64,000 bases of DNA from a virus (lineage: Duplodnaviria > Heunggongvirae > Uroviricota > Caudoviricetes): the IMG/VR virus record IMGVR_UViG_3300025327_000015. One strand, given 5' to 3'. This document shows positions 25,228 through 58,194 of this stretch, one piece after another; the stretch's first letter is position 1, and every line of letters starts with the position of its first letter. The position numbers and the translations under genes were made by a program. The notes below the pieces were generated by a model, which saw only the letters and a list, made by a program, of their open reading frames with translations, did not search any database and was not told the DNA's origin.

Positions 25228-25256
25228 ACTGAAAAGACCCGCTACGGCGGGTCTTT
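25228..25256 (+). terminator. Rho-independent terminator
   Basis: agacccgc-tacg-gcgggtct hairpin followed by TTTTCTTT. Confidence 0.55.
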
Positions 25257-25321
25257 TCTTTGATATCATTACTATCGGCTGGGCCGAAGAGCGTGGTTCA
25301 TCTCCTTATAAGAGAGAGGTC

Positions 25322-25372
25322 ATTGGTTCGAATCCAATCATTGCCTTGGGTGATGTAGCTCAGTGGTAGAGC
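25322..25372 (+). ncRNA. permuted tRNA-like module: T-arm + acceptor-3' strand, 2-3 nt loop, acceptor-5' strand + D-arm (candidate Y RNA tRNA-mimic domain)
   Basis: attgg-ttcgaat-ccaat then cattgcc / tt(g) / ggtgatg ta gctc agtggta gagc; the two acceptor strands pair 7/7 with two G-U. Confidence 0.45.
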
Positions 25373-25605
25373 GCTAAAGCTCCACACTCATTTCATGCCC
25401 GCCCTATACACTTTGATTCGCCTCCGGCAAGAGGCGATGAGAGATGGGCCGAAGAGGAATTGTTCTCACTGGTCAAAGCGGCAAGGCCCCGAAGTACGCC
25501 GCACGGAGCACTAGTGGCTCCGTAAGATCGATTCTTCACACCACGCCCTCTCTCTGTTAGATTTACTCCTGCGAATGGGTCGAAGTGAATGGTTCATCCG
25601 GTACT

Positions 25606-25690
25606 ACCGGGGTAGCTCAAGGGTAGAGCACTGGCTTAGAGCCAGAGGTTAGTGGTTCGAATCCACTCCTAGAACAACCATTGACATAAC
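25606..25690 (+). ncRNA. tRNA-like element (D-arm, anticodon-like hairpin with loop cttagag, T-arm) lacking a pairable acceptor stem
   Basis: gctc-aagggta-gagc; ctgg-cttagag-ccag; agtgg-ttcgaat-ccact; flanking 7-mers accgggg and cctagaa are not complementary. Confidence 0.3.
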
Positions 25691-25705
25691 ACATCCTTCG
25701 CTTTT

Positions 25706-26209
25706 ATGGGTTATCATCGGCCCATGCGGTCAGTTGAAGAGCGTTTCTGGGAGAAAGTAGATCGCTCAGGAGACTGCTGGCTTTGGATCGGCACAAAAGA
25801 CAAGCACTACGACTATGGTCGCTTTCGCATTGGAACAAAATCAACTGACAAGAAAGAGCGTGCTCACCGTGTAGCATGGATGTTGATTTTTGGCCCAATC
25901 CCAGATGGCATGTGGGTACTTCATCACTGTGATAGACCTGCCTGTGTTCGTCCAGAGCATCTCTTCCTCGGCACAAACTCAATGAATCAAAAAGATGCAT
26001 ATCGTAAAGGTAAACATGACTATCTTCACAAACAAGGTCGCAATAGCGGAGAAAAAAATGGAAGCTCGCGACTTACTAAAGAACAAGTTCTGGAAATACG
26101 TACAAGTCATAAGTCACAGTATGCGCTCGCAAAACGATTTGGAATCTCACAGCCAGCTATCTCATACATCCGATCAGGGAAGACCTGGCGACACTTGCTA
26201 GAGTGCTAA
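25706..26209 (+). CDS. HNH endonuclease with C-terminal HTH
   Basis: HRVAWMLIFGPIPDGMWVLHHCDRPACVRPEHLFLGTNSMN HNH_3 motif; similar to 8583..9038 product. Confidence 0.65.
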   Translation: MGYHRPMRSVEERFWEKVDRSGDCWLWIGTKDKHYDYGRFRIGTKSTDKKERAHRVAWMLIFGPIPDGMWVLHHCDRPACVRPEHLFLGTNSMNQKDAYRKGKHDYLHKQGRNSGEKNGSSRLTKEQVLEIRTSHKSQYALAKRFGISQPAISYIRSGKTWRHLLEC

Positions 26210-26334
26210 TTGCGAGTGGGCCGGAGGATCTACGGGTTATCTTCTGTCAAAAGACAACCCCGTATCCGTAATCACGCCCCTCGTCTGCTAATCTCCTGAG
26301 CGCGAGTGGGTCGAACGAGATTCGGTTCTCCCGT

Positions 26335-26390
26335 CATTGGTTCGATTCCAATCGCGCCCATATCACGGGCGCGTAGCTCAGTTGGTAGAC
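26335..26390 (+). ncRNA. permuted tRNA-like module upstream of rsr (candidate Y RNA tRNA-mimic domain)
   Basis: attgg-ttcgatt-ccaat cgcgccc a / tatcac / gggcgcg ta gctc agttggta ...; acceptor strands perfectly complementary; followed by tcctc-GGAA-gagga tetraloop hairpin. Confidence 0.45.
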
Positions 26391-26601
26391 GCAGAGTCCT
26401 CGGAAGAGGAACCCCCGAACTCACAACATATCCCTCGCGATTTGCATCGCTTTCTGTAGATGTGGTACAGTTACAACTGCTACTGAGCCGAAGGGTCAGT
26501 CGGTTATCTTGGCAATAAGAGCAGCCCGTGACGCTCGGGACACCCGACTCCCACACCATGCTCGTAGCTTCAAATCAACTCTTGCCGGGAGGTACAACAC
26601 G

Positions 26602-28182
26602 ATGTCTGATTATCTGACTCGCTACGGAACACGCGTCACGCCGCAGTCTGAGCGGATGCGTGAAGATCAGGTTCTCAACGAAGCTGGCGGCTTTGTTTGG
26701 GAGATCGACGCCTGGGCGCGGATGCGTCGTTTCCTAATTCTCGGAAGCGAAGGGGGATCGTATTACGCTTCCGAATTCCAGGCAACGAAGGATTCGGCTG
26801 CTGCTGTACGCCAGTGCATCAAGGAAGATGGTCTGCGTGCAGTAAAGGAGATCGTAGAAATCTCGCAGAAGGGCCGGGCTCCAAAGAATGATCCGGCACT
26901 CTTTGCGCTTGCCTGCGCGATTTCACTGGGTGATAAGGAAACGCGCTCGGCAGCTGCTGAGGCGCTACCTCTTGTCGCCCGTATTGGAACACATCTCTAT
27001 CATTTCGCCGCCTACGCGGAGACGATGCGCGGTTGGGGCCGGACGATGCGCTGGGCTGTTCAGAACTGGTATGACCGCAATCCCGAGCAGCTTGCACTTC
27101 AAGCGATCAAGTATCGTCAGCGAGATGGCTGGTCGCACCGTGATCTCTTGCGCCTAGCACATCCTTCTCGAAATGAAGAGACAGCTTCGCTCTTTAACTG
27201 GATCACGAAGGGTGTTCCAGAGGAAGGCAAATCTCTATCTGAAATCGTGGGAGGTTTTGAGCAGGCACAAAGCGCTACCACGCCACAGATAACGGCAAAT
27301 CTTGTCCGCGAGTATGGTCTACCACGCGAAGCACTCCAGACTGAGCATCTGAACTCGAAGGAAGTCTGGGCTGCGCTTCTAGAGATGCAGATGCCGATGA
27401 CGGCCATGCTACGTAATCTGGCCACCATGACACGAGTCGGAATTCTCGACTCGAATGATCATCGCAAGCTGGTTCTGAATGCCTTCGATAACCAGGAGGC
27501 GATCACAAACTCGCGTCTGCATCCGCTCGCCATTCTGATCGGAATGGAGACGTATGCACAGGGACACGGTATGCGTGGTCAGCATACTTGGAGCCCAATC
27601 GCTTCCATCGTGGACGCTCTCGACGGTGCTTTCTATAAGGCGTTCGGGAACGTGCAGCCTACTGGCAAGCGCCTACTCGTAGGTGTGGATGCTTCTGGAT
27701 CGATGCGAAGCGGAGTGATCGCAGGTGCTCCAGGAATGATGCCGGTTAAGGCAGCAATGGCAATGGCGCTCGTTTTCACTGCCACCGAGCAGGATGTCGA
27801 AACGGTGCTCTTCGATACCTCACTCTCGACATTCCCACTCTCTGCTCGACAGCGACTGGACGACGTTGTTCGTCGCCATCCAGGCCATGGACGAGGAACA
27901 GATGTCGCGCTTCCGATGCAATACGCAACAGCGAAGAACCGGCAGGTTGATGGCTTCGTTCTTCTAACGGATATGCAGACTTGGGCTGGTTATCAGCATC
28001 CAGCACAGGCGCTTCAGCAGTATCGCGAGCGTAGCGGTATTCCAGCACGCCTTGCCAGCGTCGCACTGATTGCTAATCGCTGGCAGGTGGCAGATCCACA
28101 AGATCCGCTAGCCTTCGAAGCAATCGGATTCGACACCGCTACACCAGAACTCGTTTCCGGCTTCGTTGCTGGTGAGTTCTAA
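26602..28182 (+). CDS. rsr: Ro60/Rsr ortholog (TROVE domain + vWA domain)
   Basis: Collinear similarity to human Ro60 throughout ([26 protein letters not shown] vs [75 protein letters not shown] MIDAS); GGGAGG RBS 7 nt upstream of ATG. Confidence 0.9.
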   Translation: [526 protein letters not shown]

Positions 28183-28355: not shown

Positions 28356-28916
28356 ATGAAAAAAATCCCAACCATTTTTGAGCGCGACTGGGAGGGAGAT
28401 CGCTCGCGGGTTCTCAATCGAATTGTTCCCGGTTGCGAATGGGTATTCACTGGTGAGGGCATCGCTACGCGCAAATACGACGGCAGCGCTTGCATGGTCG
28501 AAGACGGTGTGCTCTGGAAGCGGCATGAGGTTCGTAAAGGAAAGCAAACTCCCGAGGACTTTCGTCTTGTTGAGGATGACTTGGAAACCGGCAAGACAGT
28601 CGGATGGATTCCCGTGAGCGACGGTCCGGAGGATAAATGGCATCGGGACGCTTTCGCCCGCGATATGACTCTGGCAGACGGAACCTATGAACTAGTTGGA
28701 CCAAAAGTTCAGGGCAATCCTGAGGGCTTCGAGCAGCACACTCTCATTCGTCATTCAGATGCTGAAACGTTTATCGTCTTGCGGCGTACTTTTGAAAGAA
28801 TCCGCGATTTGATCTCTGAACTCGATGTGGAAGGCTTCGTCTTCCAGCATCCTGACGGACGCATGGCGAAAATCAAAGGACGAGATTTCGGAATCAAACG
28901 TTCGAGTAAAGAATGA
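28356..28916 (+). CDS. small ATP-dependent nucleotidyltransferase, ligase family (KxDG ligase, RNA-ligase-like)
   Basis: Motif I KYDGSAC, motif IV EGFVFQ, motif V MAKIKGRD; 186 aa; stop overlaps next start (ATGA). Confidence 0.55.
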   Translation: MKKIPTIFERDWEGDRSRVLNRIVPGCEWVFTGEGIATRKYDGSACMVEDGVLWKRHEVRKGKQTPEDFRLVEDDLETGKTVGWIPVSDGPEDKWHRDAFARDMTLADGTYELVGPKVQGNPEGFEQHTLIRHSDAETFIVLRRTFERIRDLISELDVEGFVFQHPDGRMAKIKGRDFGIKRSSKE

Positions 28917-30013: not shown

Positions 30014-30098
30014 GGAGGCTCGCAAGGCTGGCGTGCTCATCCGCCTTGAAAGCGGTGATGGTCGAAAGGCCGTACAGGTTCGATCCCTGTAGCCTCCG
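30014..30098 (+). tRNA. tRNA-Ser-like (anticodon UGA), class II with long variable arm
   Basis: Acceptor ggaggct/agcctcc, anticodon loop cttgaaa, variable hairpin ggtc-gaaa-ggcc, T-arm acagg-ttcgatc-cctgt. Confidence 0.5.
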
Positions 30099-30101
30099 CT
30101 T

Positions 30102-30184
30102 GGAGGGTCAAGTCTCAAGGAGAGACGGCGGGCTGCTAACCCGTTCGCGGTGCAAGCCGTGGGGTTCAAATCCTCGGCCCTCCG
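30102..30184 (+). tRNA. tRNA-Ser-like (anticodon GCU), class II
   Basis: Acceptor ggagggt/gccctcc (one G-U), anticodon stem cggg/cccg with loop ctgctaa, long variable arm, T-loop ttcaaat. Confidence 0.45.
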
Positions 30185-30730: not shown

Positions 30731-31179
30731 CCAAGAACCTTTCGCACCGCCGCCTCCGGCAACCAGTAAATCTTGTCAGACGGATTTTCGACGGCAGCCG
30801 TCAGCGCGACGGCAGCCAGAATATCACCGTCGAGCTTCGCCTTCTCAATCAGATACCAGCCGTAGCGCCGACGAATCTTGATTGGGATATCGGTGAGACG
30901 GACTCCTGCAACCGCCCCACCATTCCGGTCGGGCGTCACAGTGTCCTCCTTTGCGTTTAGCCCGAAAAGTCCTTGATGGGATTTTCGCTTTGGCGCTCGC
31001 AGTTATCCTGGAGCGTTTTTGCGATTGATCCTGCAAACTCGATACCGACCAACTCGTCTAGTAACGAGAAATCGAGTGTTATTCCCTCATGCGGGAATGT
31101 CGAGTAGGCCCAAGCTCTGGATGGCTTGAGCCTCAGATACAGGACTTCTCCGGTGTCATAACGCATGACGCTCATTGAC

Positions 31180-31249
31180 ACGGCTGGTAGGAATCGAACC
31201 CACTTCGTACCGGGTTGGAGCCGGACGAGACACCATGTCTCAGCCGTAT
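31180..31249 (-). tRNA. tRNA-Trp-like (anticodon CCA) with compact D-arm
   Basis: Acceptor acggctg/cagccgt perfect; anticodon stem ccgg/ccgg loop ctccaac; T-arm gtggg-ttcgatt-cctac. Confidence 0.45.
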
Positions 31250-31326
31250 AGTGGGCGGATTTTTCGAAGACCAGCACCGTCCAGCTGGCTTACGAACAGA
31301 TGCCTCGTGAGACATCTACCTTCTAG

Positions 31327-31402
31327 TAGCGCGCCTGGGAGTCGAACCCAGAGACTTCGGCTTATGAGGCCGACGCAGGAAGTCCGGTCCTGCTCGCGCG
31401 CA
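31327..31402 (-). tRNA. tRNA-Met (anticodon CAU)
   Basis: D-stem gcag/ctgc, anticodon stem tcggc/gccga loop ctcataa, T-arm ctggg-ttcgact-cccag, acceptor 6/7 bp with terminal mismatch. Confidence 0.55.
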
Positions 31403-58121: not shown

Positions 58122-58194
58122 CGCCCTCAATCGGATTCGAACCGATGTGTTCACCTCGACAGGGTGACAGACTAGGCCGCTGTCTGATGAGGGC
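58122..58194 (-). tRNA. tRNA-Asp (anticodon GUC)
   Basis: Acceptor gccctca/tgagggc, D-stem agac/gtct, anticodon stem tcacc/ggtga loop ctgtcga, T-arm atcgg-ttcgaat-ccgat. Confidence 0.6.

What the first reader, a model, noticed from the sequence alone, without database searches (positions are those of the whole stretch)
26335..26390. Circularly permuted tRNA-like module 2, located 210 nt upstream of rsr
The order is attgg-TTCGATT-ccaat (T-arm), cgcgccc-a (acceptor 3' strand plus discriminator), tatcac (loop), gggcgcg (perfectly complementary acceptor 5' strand), then ta-gctc-agttggta (D-arm). This is followed by a tcctc-GGAA-gagga GNRA-tetraloop hairpin instead of an anticodon arm. It shares the architecture of module 1 but has a different acceptor sequence. 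Conservation of structure rather than sequence argues for function.
Basis: seen in the sequence. Interest (0 to 1): 0.8.

Follow-up and report, generated by a model that had tools for sequence, protein, structure and literature searches.

The report
Phage YrlA-type Y RNA (tRNA mimic)
The flagged sequence is the tRNA-shaped middle of a Y RNA gene, a known class of small RNA (YrlA) that partners with the Ro/Rsr protein encoded just downstream; the unusual part is that this virus carries six such RNA genes in a row.

Summary

It is not a free-standing module. It is the core of a ~140-nt RNA gene (26300-26440, + strand). The ends of that RNA pair into a bulged stem carrying the Ro-binding motif GTCGAACG.

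This order (V, T arm, closed acceptor, D arm inside a Ro-binding stem) is that of YrlA, the bacterial and phage Y RNA described as resembling a circularly permuted tRNA. rsr (TROVE + vWA_Ro60) starts at 26602 on the same strand.

Twelve orthologues from related metagenomic phages keep the fold through compensatory changes: 89% of cells are paired and 29 of 42 pairs show double changes. The tRNA core nucleotides are invariant or nearly so.

It is neither two tandem tRNAs nor a tmRNA.

Verdict: a new member of a known kind.

Seen in passing: it is the fifth of six tandem Y RNA genes (relatives have about 5-10). Their tRNA-like parts are opened at different points, and most window units have their own extended -10-like promoter.

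The parts
26300..26440 (+). Y RNA gene 'U5' (YrlA type); contains the finding
   Evidence: Model R1 scores 131.1 bits over its full length on 26298-26442. Structure supported by covariation.
26286..26294 (+). Extended -10-like element TGCTAATCT, ending 6 nt before the stem
   Evidence: Sequence. TGnTAnnnT lies 4-7 nt upstream of 5 of 6 window units and 17 of 66 units overall, against 0.6% background. Inferred promoter.
26301..26313 (+). 5' strand of the Ro-binding stem: CGCGAG, bulged U 26307, GGGU, bulged C 26312, G. The motif GTCGAACG (GNCGAAN0-1G) is at 26310-26317.
   Evidence: Motif definition from PMC4201824.
26319..26325 (+). 5' strand of upper stem P2, pairs with 26415-26421
   Evidence: helix 2: 79.5% paired, 5 pairs with double changes.
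26326..26330 (+). UUCUC, this unit's variant of the UUAUC motif. CUC 26328-30 pairs with GAG 26394-96 (anticodon-stem remnant).
   Evidence: motif in 60 of 66 units. helix 3: 75% paired, few sequences.
26331..26335 (+). Variable-loop equivalent CCGUC; C26335 corresponds to position 48
   Evidence: 15:48 is G:C in 5, A:U in 4 and A:C in 3 orthologues.
26336..26352 (+). T arm (5 bp, loop UUCGAUU)
   Evidence: 100% paired; T54 T55 C56 G57 A58 invariant in 12 of 12.
26353..26373 (+). Closed acceptor-like stem: 7 bp, discriminator-like A 26360, loop 26361-66
   Evidence: about 97% paired, 6 of 7 pairs with compensatory changes.
26374..26392 (+). U8 A9 followed by the D arm (GCUC / AGUUGGUA / GAcGC)
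   Evidence: 91.7% paired; A14, G18, G19 conserved.
26397..26410 (+). Extra hairpin UCCUC-GGAA-GAGGA
   Evidence: A hairpin sits here in 8 of 12 orthologues, with variable length and loop.
26415..26421 (+). 3' strand of P2
26429..26439 (+). 3' strand of the Ro-binding stem (UAUCCCUCGCG)
   Evidence: 10 of 10 paired. helix 1: 93.8% paired, 7 pairs with double changes.
26437..26455 (+). Weak terminator-like hairpin GCGAUUUGCAUCGC followed by UUUCU
   Evidence: Consensus match only.
25274..25407 (+).
   Evidence: Rfam YrlA 33.7 bits. R1 46.9 bits.
25439..25554 (+). Y RNA 'U2' (no T or D arm consensus)
   Evidence: Terminal stem 10 of 10 paired. R1 31.6 bits.
25570..25702 (+). Y RNA 'U3': tRNA-like part in the order D arm, anticodon arm, T arm. 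ARAGORN calls it tRNA-Leu(tag).
26211..26285 (+). Y RNA 'U4' (short hairpin type)
   Evidence: R1 31.3 bits.
26478..26569 (+). Y RNA 'U6', abutting the rsr ribosome-binding site
   Evidence: Orthologues in 8 loci are found by R1. The window copy itself did not reach E 1 with default filters.
26602..28182 (+). rsr (Ro60 orthologue)
   Evidence: Pfam TROVE 1.5e-45 and vWA_Ro60 2.3e-44. 42-47% identical to actinophage 'Ro-like RNA binding protein'.

Best explanation
The finding is the tRNA-like domain of a YrlA-class Y RNA gene at window ~26300-26440, + strand. It is the fifth of six tandem Y RNA genes directly upstream of the rsr (Ro60) gene of an uncultivated phage. The phage is distantly related to phages of Actinobacteria.

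Shown here:
- The RNA's 5' and 3' ends pair into a bulged stem that carries the Ro-binding motif.
- Inside it lie, in order: a variable-loop equivalent, a T arm, a 7-bp acceptor-like stem closed by a loop, U8-A9, a D arm, a 3-bp anticodon-stem remnant and an extra hairpin.
- All helices are kept by compensatory changes in relatives.
- The nucleotides that build the tRNA elbow are invariant or nearly so.

Inferred from the characterised family (PMC4201824, 10.1101/312249, PMC12135203):
- The stem binds the phage Rsr ring.
- The L-shaped tRNA mimic is recognised by host tRNA enzymes (TruB, Dus).
- The mimic serves to tether Rsr to, or gate it for, a partner such as host PNPase or a tRNA-binding factor.
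- Because the acceptor stem has 7 bp, as in M. smegmatis YrlA, cleavage by RNase P and CCA addition is plausible. That would give a two-piece RNA.
- Each unit probably starts at its own extended -10 promoter.
For: Identity as a YrlA-type RNA:
- Rfam YrlA is the top match on 26328-26397, with T, AS and D aligned in that order.
- GTCGAACG fits GNCGAAN0-1G at 26310-17 (definition).
- rsr is on the same strand, 162 nt downstream of the RNA's 3' end.

The Ro-binding motif and stem:
- The strict 5'-strand motif occurs exactly 6 times in 64 kb, all on the + strand and all at 25280-26484.
- The terminal stem is 10 of 10 paired. GGGC/GCCC, GGGU/AYCC and GAGC/GCUC replace one another across units.

Conservation of the fold:
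- Structure-blind MAFFT alignment of 12 orthologues: T stem 100% paired, acceptor 97.5% paired with 6 of 7 pairs covarying.
- Model-fitted alignment: 89.3% paired against 32-50% in the slid controls, and 29 of 42 pairs with double changes.
- tRNA core nucleotides are conserved, and positions 15:48 switch between G:C and A:U.
- In the window, the model hits only the array upstream of rsr, apart from one 17-nt tRNA T-arm match at 58130-58146 (E 0.66).

Calibration against known phage YrlAs:
- Isolated actinophages of the kind published as carrying YrlA give the same sub-threshold Rfam scores, 33-37 bits.
- The same phages are hit by the model upstream of rsr.
Against: - Rfam's gathering score (69 bits) is not reached: 29.3 bits, and only model positions 23-86 match.
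- There is no expression, end-mapping or Rsr-binding data.
- The host is unknown.
- The single-sequence MFE fold does not recover the T arm. This is common for tRNA-like RNAs.
- The 3-bp helix and the extra hairpin are supported by few sequences.
- RNase P cleavage with CCA addition, and the identity of the tethered partner, are pure inference.
Confidence: 0.88

Rival explanations
1. Two tandem canonical (or decayed) tRNA genes. The 'module' would be the junction between them: the T arm and acceptor 3' strand of one, then the acceptor 5' strand and D arm of the next.
For: Junctions between real tandem tRNAs in related loci give weak partial hits to the model, covering positions 37-93 only at 19-33 bits (tRNAs located). 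Wang et al. (10.1101/312249) propose such a dimer as the evolutionary origin of YrlA.
Against: - ARAGORN finds no tRNA at 26285-26440.
- No Rfam tRNA hit is listed there at E up to 10. Any hit dropped by clan competition scored below cyano_tmRNA's 21.9-24.1 bits, hence below the tRNA gathering score of 29.
- The two acceptor strands are perfectly complementary to each other and covary together in 12 loci.
- The flanks carry a Ro-binding stem instead of the missing tRNA arms.
Confidence: 0.02
2. A circularly permuted tRNA gene, as in some algae and archaea. It would be processed through a circular intermediate into a decoding tRNA.
For: It has the same topology: a closed acceptor and ends in the anticodon region (10.1101/312249, Discussion).
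Against: - There is no anticodon loop. The position is taken by a 3-bp helix and a GNRA hairpin.
- The ends form a conserved Ro-binding stem.
Confidence: 0.03
3. The acceptor piece of a two-piece (permuted) tmRNA.
For: A weak Rfam cyano_tmRNA match, 21.9-24.1 bits against a gathering score of 70, on the T arm plus closed acceptor.
Against: - ARAGORN, which detects permuted tmRNAs, reports none.
- Position 3:70 is G-C rather than the G-U alanine identity pair.
- No tag reading frame or pseudoknots match the model. Only model positions 62-107 of 288 match.
- A D arm with a full stem is present.
Confidence: 0.01
4. A cis-acting structured leader of the rsr mRNA, for example an autoregulatory Rsr-binding site, rather than a separate small RNA.
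For: It is on the same strand and there is no strong terminator between the array and rsr. In M. smegmatis the Y RNAs and rsr come from one precursor.
Against: - A self-contained 5'/3' stem.
- Its own -10-like element.
- Another complete unit (U6) lies between it and rsr.
- Orthologous units occupy different positions in the arrays of relatives.
Confidence: 0.05

Closest known systems
M. smegmatis YrlA (PMC4201824)
   Same: - Lies upstream of rsr on the same strand.
- Carries the GNCGAAN0-1G motif.
- Has the order T arm, acceptor-like stem, D arm.
- Has a 7-bp acceptor-like stem, the feature that makes it an RNase P substrate with CCA addition in vivo.
- About 147 nt long; here about 140 nt.
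   Different: - Both strands of the Ro-binding helix are conserved here. The paper says only the 5' strand is recognisable in the M. smegmatis and Salmonella RNAs.
- An extra hairpin follows the D arm.
- The unit has its own -10-like element.
- There are six Y RNAs rather than two.
- Cleavage and CCA addition are untested here.
S. Typhimurium YrlA (Rfam RF02553; crystal structure PDB 6CU1, 10.1101/312249)
   Same: The same permuted-tRNA topology. The same D-arm consensus GUAGCUCA..GGUAGAGC and the same T loop.
   Different: - The Salmonella acceptor-like stem has 6 bp.
- The Salmonella gene sits in the RtcR-controlled rsr-yrlBA-rtcBA operon.
- The window RNA reaches only 29 bits of the 69-bit Rfam threshold.
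YrlA-like RNAs of mycobacteriophages (22 phages in PMC4201824; e.g. cluster C1 such as LinStu)
   Same: Phage-encoded and directly upstream of the phage Ro gene. Similar Rfam scores of 33-37 bits.
   Different: Those phages show 1-3 model hits upstream of rsr. This window has 6, and its closer relatives have about 5-10.
D. radiodurans Yrn1 and Yrn2
   Same: Both strands of the bulged Ro-binding helix are retained. Several Y RNAs sit upstream of rsr, interspersed with a tRNA.
   Different: Yrn1 has the opposite arm order (D, anticodon-like arm, T). In the window that order is seen in unit U3, not in the finding.
Thermus phage phiLo Yrl1 and Yrl2 (PMC12135203)
   Same: Phage Y RNA-like genes upstream of a phage Ro60, identified by the CGAA motif and a stem-bulge-stem structure. 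They form complexes with phage Ro60 and host PNPase in vitro.
   Different: There are two RNAs, and the paper's text mentions no tRNA-like domain.
Metazoan Y RNAs and nematode sbRNAs
   Same: A lower stem with a bulged C (animal UGGUCCGA, here UGGGYCGRA), then an upper stem, then a UUAUC motif at the start of the loop (PMC4726728). Here UUAUC or a close variant is found in 60 of 66 units.
   Different: Animal Y RNAs have no tRNA-like domain. Whether the resemblance reflects homology or convergence on Ro binding is not resolved.

Membership tests
YrlA (Chen et al. 2014; Rfam RF02553) | Encoded within about 4 kb of a TROVE/Ro60 gene, on the same strand | tested here: met
   The RNA ends at 26440 and rsr runs 26602-28182, both on the + strand.
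YrlA (Chen et al. 2014; Rfam RF02553) | GNCGAAN0-1G motif near the 5' end | tested here: met
   GTCGAACG at 26310-26317, 10 nt from the predicted 5' end.
YrlA (Chen et al. 2014; Rfam RF02553) | Conserved T-arm-like and D-arm-like stem-loops, with an acceptor-like stem-loop between them (order V, T, AS, D) | tested here: met
   Rfam alignment. Covariation in 12 orthologues.
YrlA (Chen et al. 2014; Rfam RF02553) | Nucleotides for tRNA tertiary contacts: U8-A14, 15:48 Levitt pair, G18 G19 with 55/56, 54-58 | tested here: met
   All are present in the window copy and invariant or nearly so in orthologues. Positions 15:48 covary G:C and A:U in 9 of 12. The 3D fold itself was not tested.
YrlA (Chen et al. 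2014; Rfam RF02553) | Score at or above Rfam's gathering threshold (69 bits) | tested here: not met
   29.3 bits, model positions 23-86. Actinophage YrlAs of the published kind also score only 33-37 bits, so the threshold excludes this whole phage subgroup.
YrlA (Chen et al. 2014; Rfam RF02553) | Bound by Rsr; modified by TruB and DusA | not testable with these tools
   Needs immunoprecipitation and modification mapping.
Y RNA (general) | 5' and 3' ends pair into a stem containing the conserved bulged helix recognised by Ro60 | tested here: met
   26301-13 pairs with 26429-39, with bulged U and bulged C. 93.8% paired, with 7 covarying pairs.
Canonical tRNA gene(s) | Detected by ARAGORN or the Rfam tRNA model; acceptor formed by the 5' and 3' ends; anticodon arm with a 7-nt loop | tested here: not met
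   No call at 26285-26440. The acceptor is closed by a loop. A GNRA tetraloop hairpin takes the place of an anticodon loop.
Two-piece (permuted) tmRNA | tmRNA call with a tag peptide; G3:U70; pseudoknots | tested here: not met
   ARAGORN reports none. Rfam cyano_tmRNA gives 22-24 bits against a threshold of 70, over model positions 62-107 only. Position 3:70 is G-C.
Yrn1 type (D. radiodurans) | Arm order D, anticodon-like arm, T between the Ro-stem strands | tested here: not met
   The finding has the order T, AS, D. The Yrn1-like order is found in the neighbouring unit U3, 25570-25702.

The most novel reading that the evidence does not exclude
The finding is one element of a phage-borne array of Y RNAs: six in this window and about 5-10 in relatives. 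The same Ro-binding stem (with a metazoan-like bulged helix and UUAUC motif) is fused to tRNA-shaped modules opened at different points:
- in the anticodon arm (YrlA type, U1 and U5);
- within the acceptor 3' strand (U3, which keeps a Leu-like anticodon arm);
- in the D loop (relatives only);
- apparently in the variable loop (two relatives).

Such a set could let one phage Rsr be tethered to several different host tRNA-binding factors. It could also present decoys or substrates in a tRNA damage and repair conflict with the host. In this phage an RNA ligase gene follows rsr, and tRNA genes surround the locus.

I found no description of arrays this large, or of the D-loop and acceptor-strand permutations, in the papers I could search.
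Probability: 0.45. Interest if true: 0.6.

Novelty: new member of a known kind. Interest (0 to 1): 0.38.

Why it matters
On its own, the module adds one more phage YrlA to a family known since 2014. Its practical use is for annotation. Rfam's threshold misses it, and ARAGORN mislabels a sister unit as tRNA-Leu.

The context is more useful. This group of uncultivated phages offers a compact natural series of Y RNAs that share one Ro-binding stem but display differently permuted tRNA mimics. The function of the tRNA-like domain of bacterial Y RNAs is still unknown. A phage with six variants, each apparently with its own promoter, next to rsr and an RNA ligase, gives a direct way to ask which host factors each mimic recruits.

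Tried and rejected
Searches that found nothing:
- Megablast of the locus against GenBank phages: no match.
- Rsr-based search of IMG/VR: no relative confirmed.
- GTDB genome scan for the most conserved unit's 5' strand, aimed at finding a host or prophage: 0 hits.
- tblastn for the RNA ligase in the flanks of related loci: nothing, so the rsr-ligase adjacency is not conserved.

Searches that gave little:
- IMG/VR pattern search (Ro motif plus T loop) returned 9 contigs. The model found only one weak hit among them (L017, 15.5 bits) and no arrays.

Readings rejected:
- Tandem tRNAs, a permuted decoding tRNA, and tmRNA. Reasons are given under the rival explanations.

Limits of the methods:
- The single-sequence MFE fold recovers the terminal stem, the acceptor stem and the GNRA hairpin, but not the T arm. 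The reverse strand folds about as well (z -2.4 against -3.1). Thermodynamics alone therefore does not decide the strand or the structure. The strand follows from the motifs, G-U pairs and rsr orientation.

- The supplement of Chen et al. 2014 and two reviews (PMC10870794, PMC6542706) were not held. The published maximum number of Y RNAs per locus could not be checked.

Full report
**Observation**

- T arm: attgg/TTCGATT/ccaat, 26336-26352.
- Acceptor-like stem: cgcgccc 26353-59, a 26360, tatcac 26361-66, gggcgcg 26367-73.
- ta 26374-75.
- D arm: gctc/agttggta/gaCgc, 26376-92.
- Hairpin: tcctc-GGAA-gagga, 26397-26410.

The rsr reading frame starts at ATG 26602. It carries TROVE and Ro60-vWA domains. 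The D arm therefore ends 210 nt upstream, as stated.

**What it is**

With relaxed thresholds the best Rfam match on 26328-26397 is YrlA (RF02553): 29.3 bits, E 7.6e-5 to 6.6e-4, aligning T arm, closed stem and D arm in that order.

Chen et al. 2014 (PMC4201824) define YrlA RNAs by four features:
- a location near Ro60 on the same strand;
- a 5' GNCGAAN0-1G motif;
- T-like and D-like arms;
- an acceptor-like stem-loop between those arms.

Wang et al. (10.1101/312249) describe these RNAs as resembling circularly permuted tRNAs with closed acceptor stems.

The window sequence has GTCGAACG at 26310-17. Its flanks pair: CGCGAG-U-GGGU-C-G (26301-13) with UAUCCCUCGCG (26429-39). This gives a self-contained RNA of about 140 nt.

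**An array of six units**

The 5'-strand motif TG[GA]G[CT]CG[AG]A.?G occurs exactly six times in the 64-kb window. All six are on the + strand, between 25280 and 26484. Each is matched downstream by a 3' strand of the form ..CAYGCCC plus the complement of the six bases that precede the bulged T. The finding is thus the fifth of six tandem Y RNA genes, U1 to U6.

**Comparative evidence**

The window has no close relative among GenBank phages. Its capsid protein is 34-37% identical, and its Rsr 42-47% identical, to proteins of phages of Gordonia, Mycobacterium and Microbacterium.

A protein search found Rsr relatives at 60-78% identity on metagenomic contigs. I fetched eleven such loci. Ten have sequence upstream of rsr, and two of those are near-identical. 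All carry about 5-10 copies of the same motif upstream of rsr on its strand.

I aligned twelve units of the same type as the finding without reference to structure (A1).
- RNAalifold recovered the Ro-stem core, the upper stem, the T stem and the 7-bp acceptor stem.
- For a hand-drawn full structure, 80% of cells pair on this alignment. The T stem is 100% paired. The acceptor stem is 97.5% paired, with six of seven pairs changed on both sides.

I then built a covariance model from this alignment (R1).
- It scores 131 bits on 26298-26442.
- In the window, at E up to 1, it hits only four of the other five array units (U1-U4) and one tRNA T arm at E 0.66. U6 is missed with default filters.
- On the model-fitted alignment, 89.3% of cells pair, against 32-50% when partners are slid.
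- 29 of 42 pairs show compensatory changes.

The nucleotides that build the tRNA elbow are conserved.
- T54, T55, C56, G57, A58 and the G53-C61 pair: 12 of 12.
- U8, A14, G19: 11 of 12. G18: 12 of 12.
- Positions 15:48 are G:C in five, A:U in four and A:C in three.

**Rfam threshold**

The match falls far short of Rfam's gathering score. So do the YrlA-like RNAs of isolated actinophages, of the kind reported in the original paper:
- LinStu 36.1 bits, Farewell 36.6, FuzzBuster 33.3.

My model does find these directly upstream of their Ro genes. I therefore treat the failed threshold as a limit of the Rfam seed, not as evidence against membership.

**Rivals**

- No tRNA is called at 26285-26440 by ARAGORN or by the Rfam tRNA model. 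Junctions between real tandem tRNAs in related loci give only weak, partial hits to my model. This rejects the tandem-tRNA reading.
- A permuted decoding tRNA is excluded because there is no anticodon loop.
- A permuted tmRNA is excluded. ARAGORN makes no call, position 3:70 is G-C, and the cyano_tmRNA model reaches only 22-24 of 70 bits.

**Mechanism**

Shown here: the structure, its conservation, and its linkage to rsr.

Inferred from the family:
- The stem binds phage Rsr.
- The tRNA mimic is recognised by host tRNA enzymes.
- The mimic tethers or gates Rsr with respect to a partner. Host PNPase forms complexes with phage Ro60 and Yrl RNAs in vitro in Thermus phage phiLo (PMC12135203).
- The 7-bp acceptor stem with a discriminator-like A resembles M. 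smegmatis YrlA. That RNA is cut by RNase P and receives CCA in vivo. The same is plausible here but untested.

TGnTAnnnT elements end 4-7 nt before the stem in five of the six window units. Across all loci the figure is 17 of 66 units, against a background of 0.6%. This suggests that many units, including five of the six in the window, are individual transcription units.

**Differences from described YrlAs**

- Both strands of the bulged Ro helix are conserved and covary, as in Deinococcus and animal Y RNAs.
- A UUAUC-like motif follows the upper stem in 60 of 66 units. The same motif is known in animal Y RNAs and nematode sbRNAs (PMC4726728).
- A variable extra hairpin follows the D arm.
- The gene belongs to an array larger than any I found described.

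**Verdict**

The object is a new member of the known YrlA class of Y RNAs. The array, and the variety of permutation points among its members, are the parts that deserve follow-up.

Noticed in passing
window 25274-26569 (units at 25274-25407, 25439-25554, 25570-25702, 26211-26285, 26301-26439, 26478-26569): Six tandem Y RNA genes upstream of rsr. Ten related metagenomic loci have about 5-10 each, while isolated actinophages show 1-3. I found no description of arrays this large in the papers I could search.
   Followed up: partly
window 25570-25702 (ARAGORN tRNA-Leu(tag) 25605-25675): Unit U3 is a Y RNA whose tRNA-like part has the order hairpin, GG, UA, D arm, anticodon arm (UAG-type loop), V, T arm, CC.

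The 2-bp GG/CC (GA/UC in one relative) plus the hairpin make a 7-bp acceptor-like stack. The tRNA shape is therefore opened inside the acceptor 3' strand.

Six orthologues: 96.7% of cells paired, 17 of 40 pairs with double changes. The ARAGORN and Rfam 'tRNA' call here is probably not a free tRNA.
   Followed up: partly
L001 1585-1727, L003 3452-3596, L006 1597-1744, L007 3487-3631, L010 1662-1793 (not in the window): A further Y RNA type in which the Ro stem enters through the D loop. The rest is a complete cloverleaf: anticodon arm, T arm, 7-bp closed acceptor.

89.2% of cells paired, 17 of 40 pairs with double changes.

Separately, in L003 3613 and L010 3562 the junction appears to lie in the variable loop.
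   Followed up: partly
all units; in the finding 26326-26330: A [GAU]UU[AC][UC]C motif, exact UUAUC in 44 of 66 units, lies 17-20 nt after the bulged U. It sits just after the upper stem, in the same relative position as the UUAUC motif of vertebrate Y RNAs and nematode sbRNAs (PMC4726728).
   Followed up: partly
window 25420-25436; also L001 and L004-L009: A conserved hairpin GCCUC(C)GGCAAGAGGC precedes units that lack a -10-like element. It may be a processing or transcription signal. Its function is unexplained.
   Followed up: no
window 26478-26601: Unit U6 is the most conserved type across loci. It ends about 30 nt before the rsr start, next to a conserved CTCTTGCCrrGGAGG ribosome-binding region. 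It may be the 5' leader of the rsr mRNA and a site of autoregulation.
   Followed up: no
window 28356-28916 (+): The ORF after rsr is an RNA ligase: PHROG 14301 at E 5.7e-61, and PDB 9C6L 'RNA ligase1' at E 2.4e-14. This echoes the bacterial rsr-rtcB linkage. It is not found in the fetched flanks of related loci.
   Followed up: partly
window 25706-26209 (+): An HNH_3 homing-endonuclease-like ORF is inserted between Y RNA units U3 and U4. The -10-like element of U4 lies inside its 3' end.
   Followed up: no
window 30014-30184 and 31177-31402: Four of the seven ARAGORN tRNAs (two Ser, Trp, Met) are not reported by the Rfam tRNA model at its gathering score. They may be atypical phage tRNAs or over-calls.
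   Followed up: no
window 25231-25258: A strong 12-bp hairpin flanked by A-run and T-run, terminator-like in both directions. It separates the leftward capsid gene region from the start of the Y RNA array.
   Followed up: no
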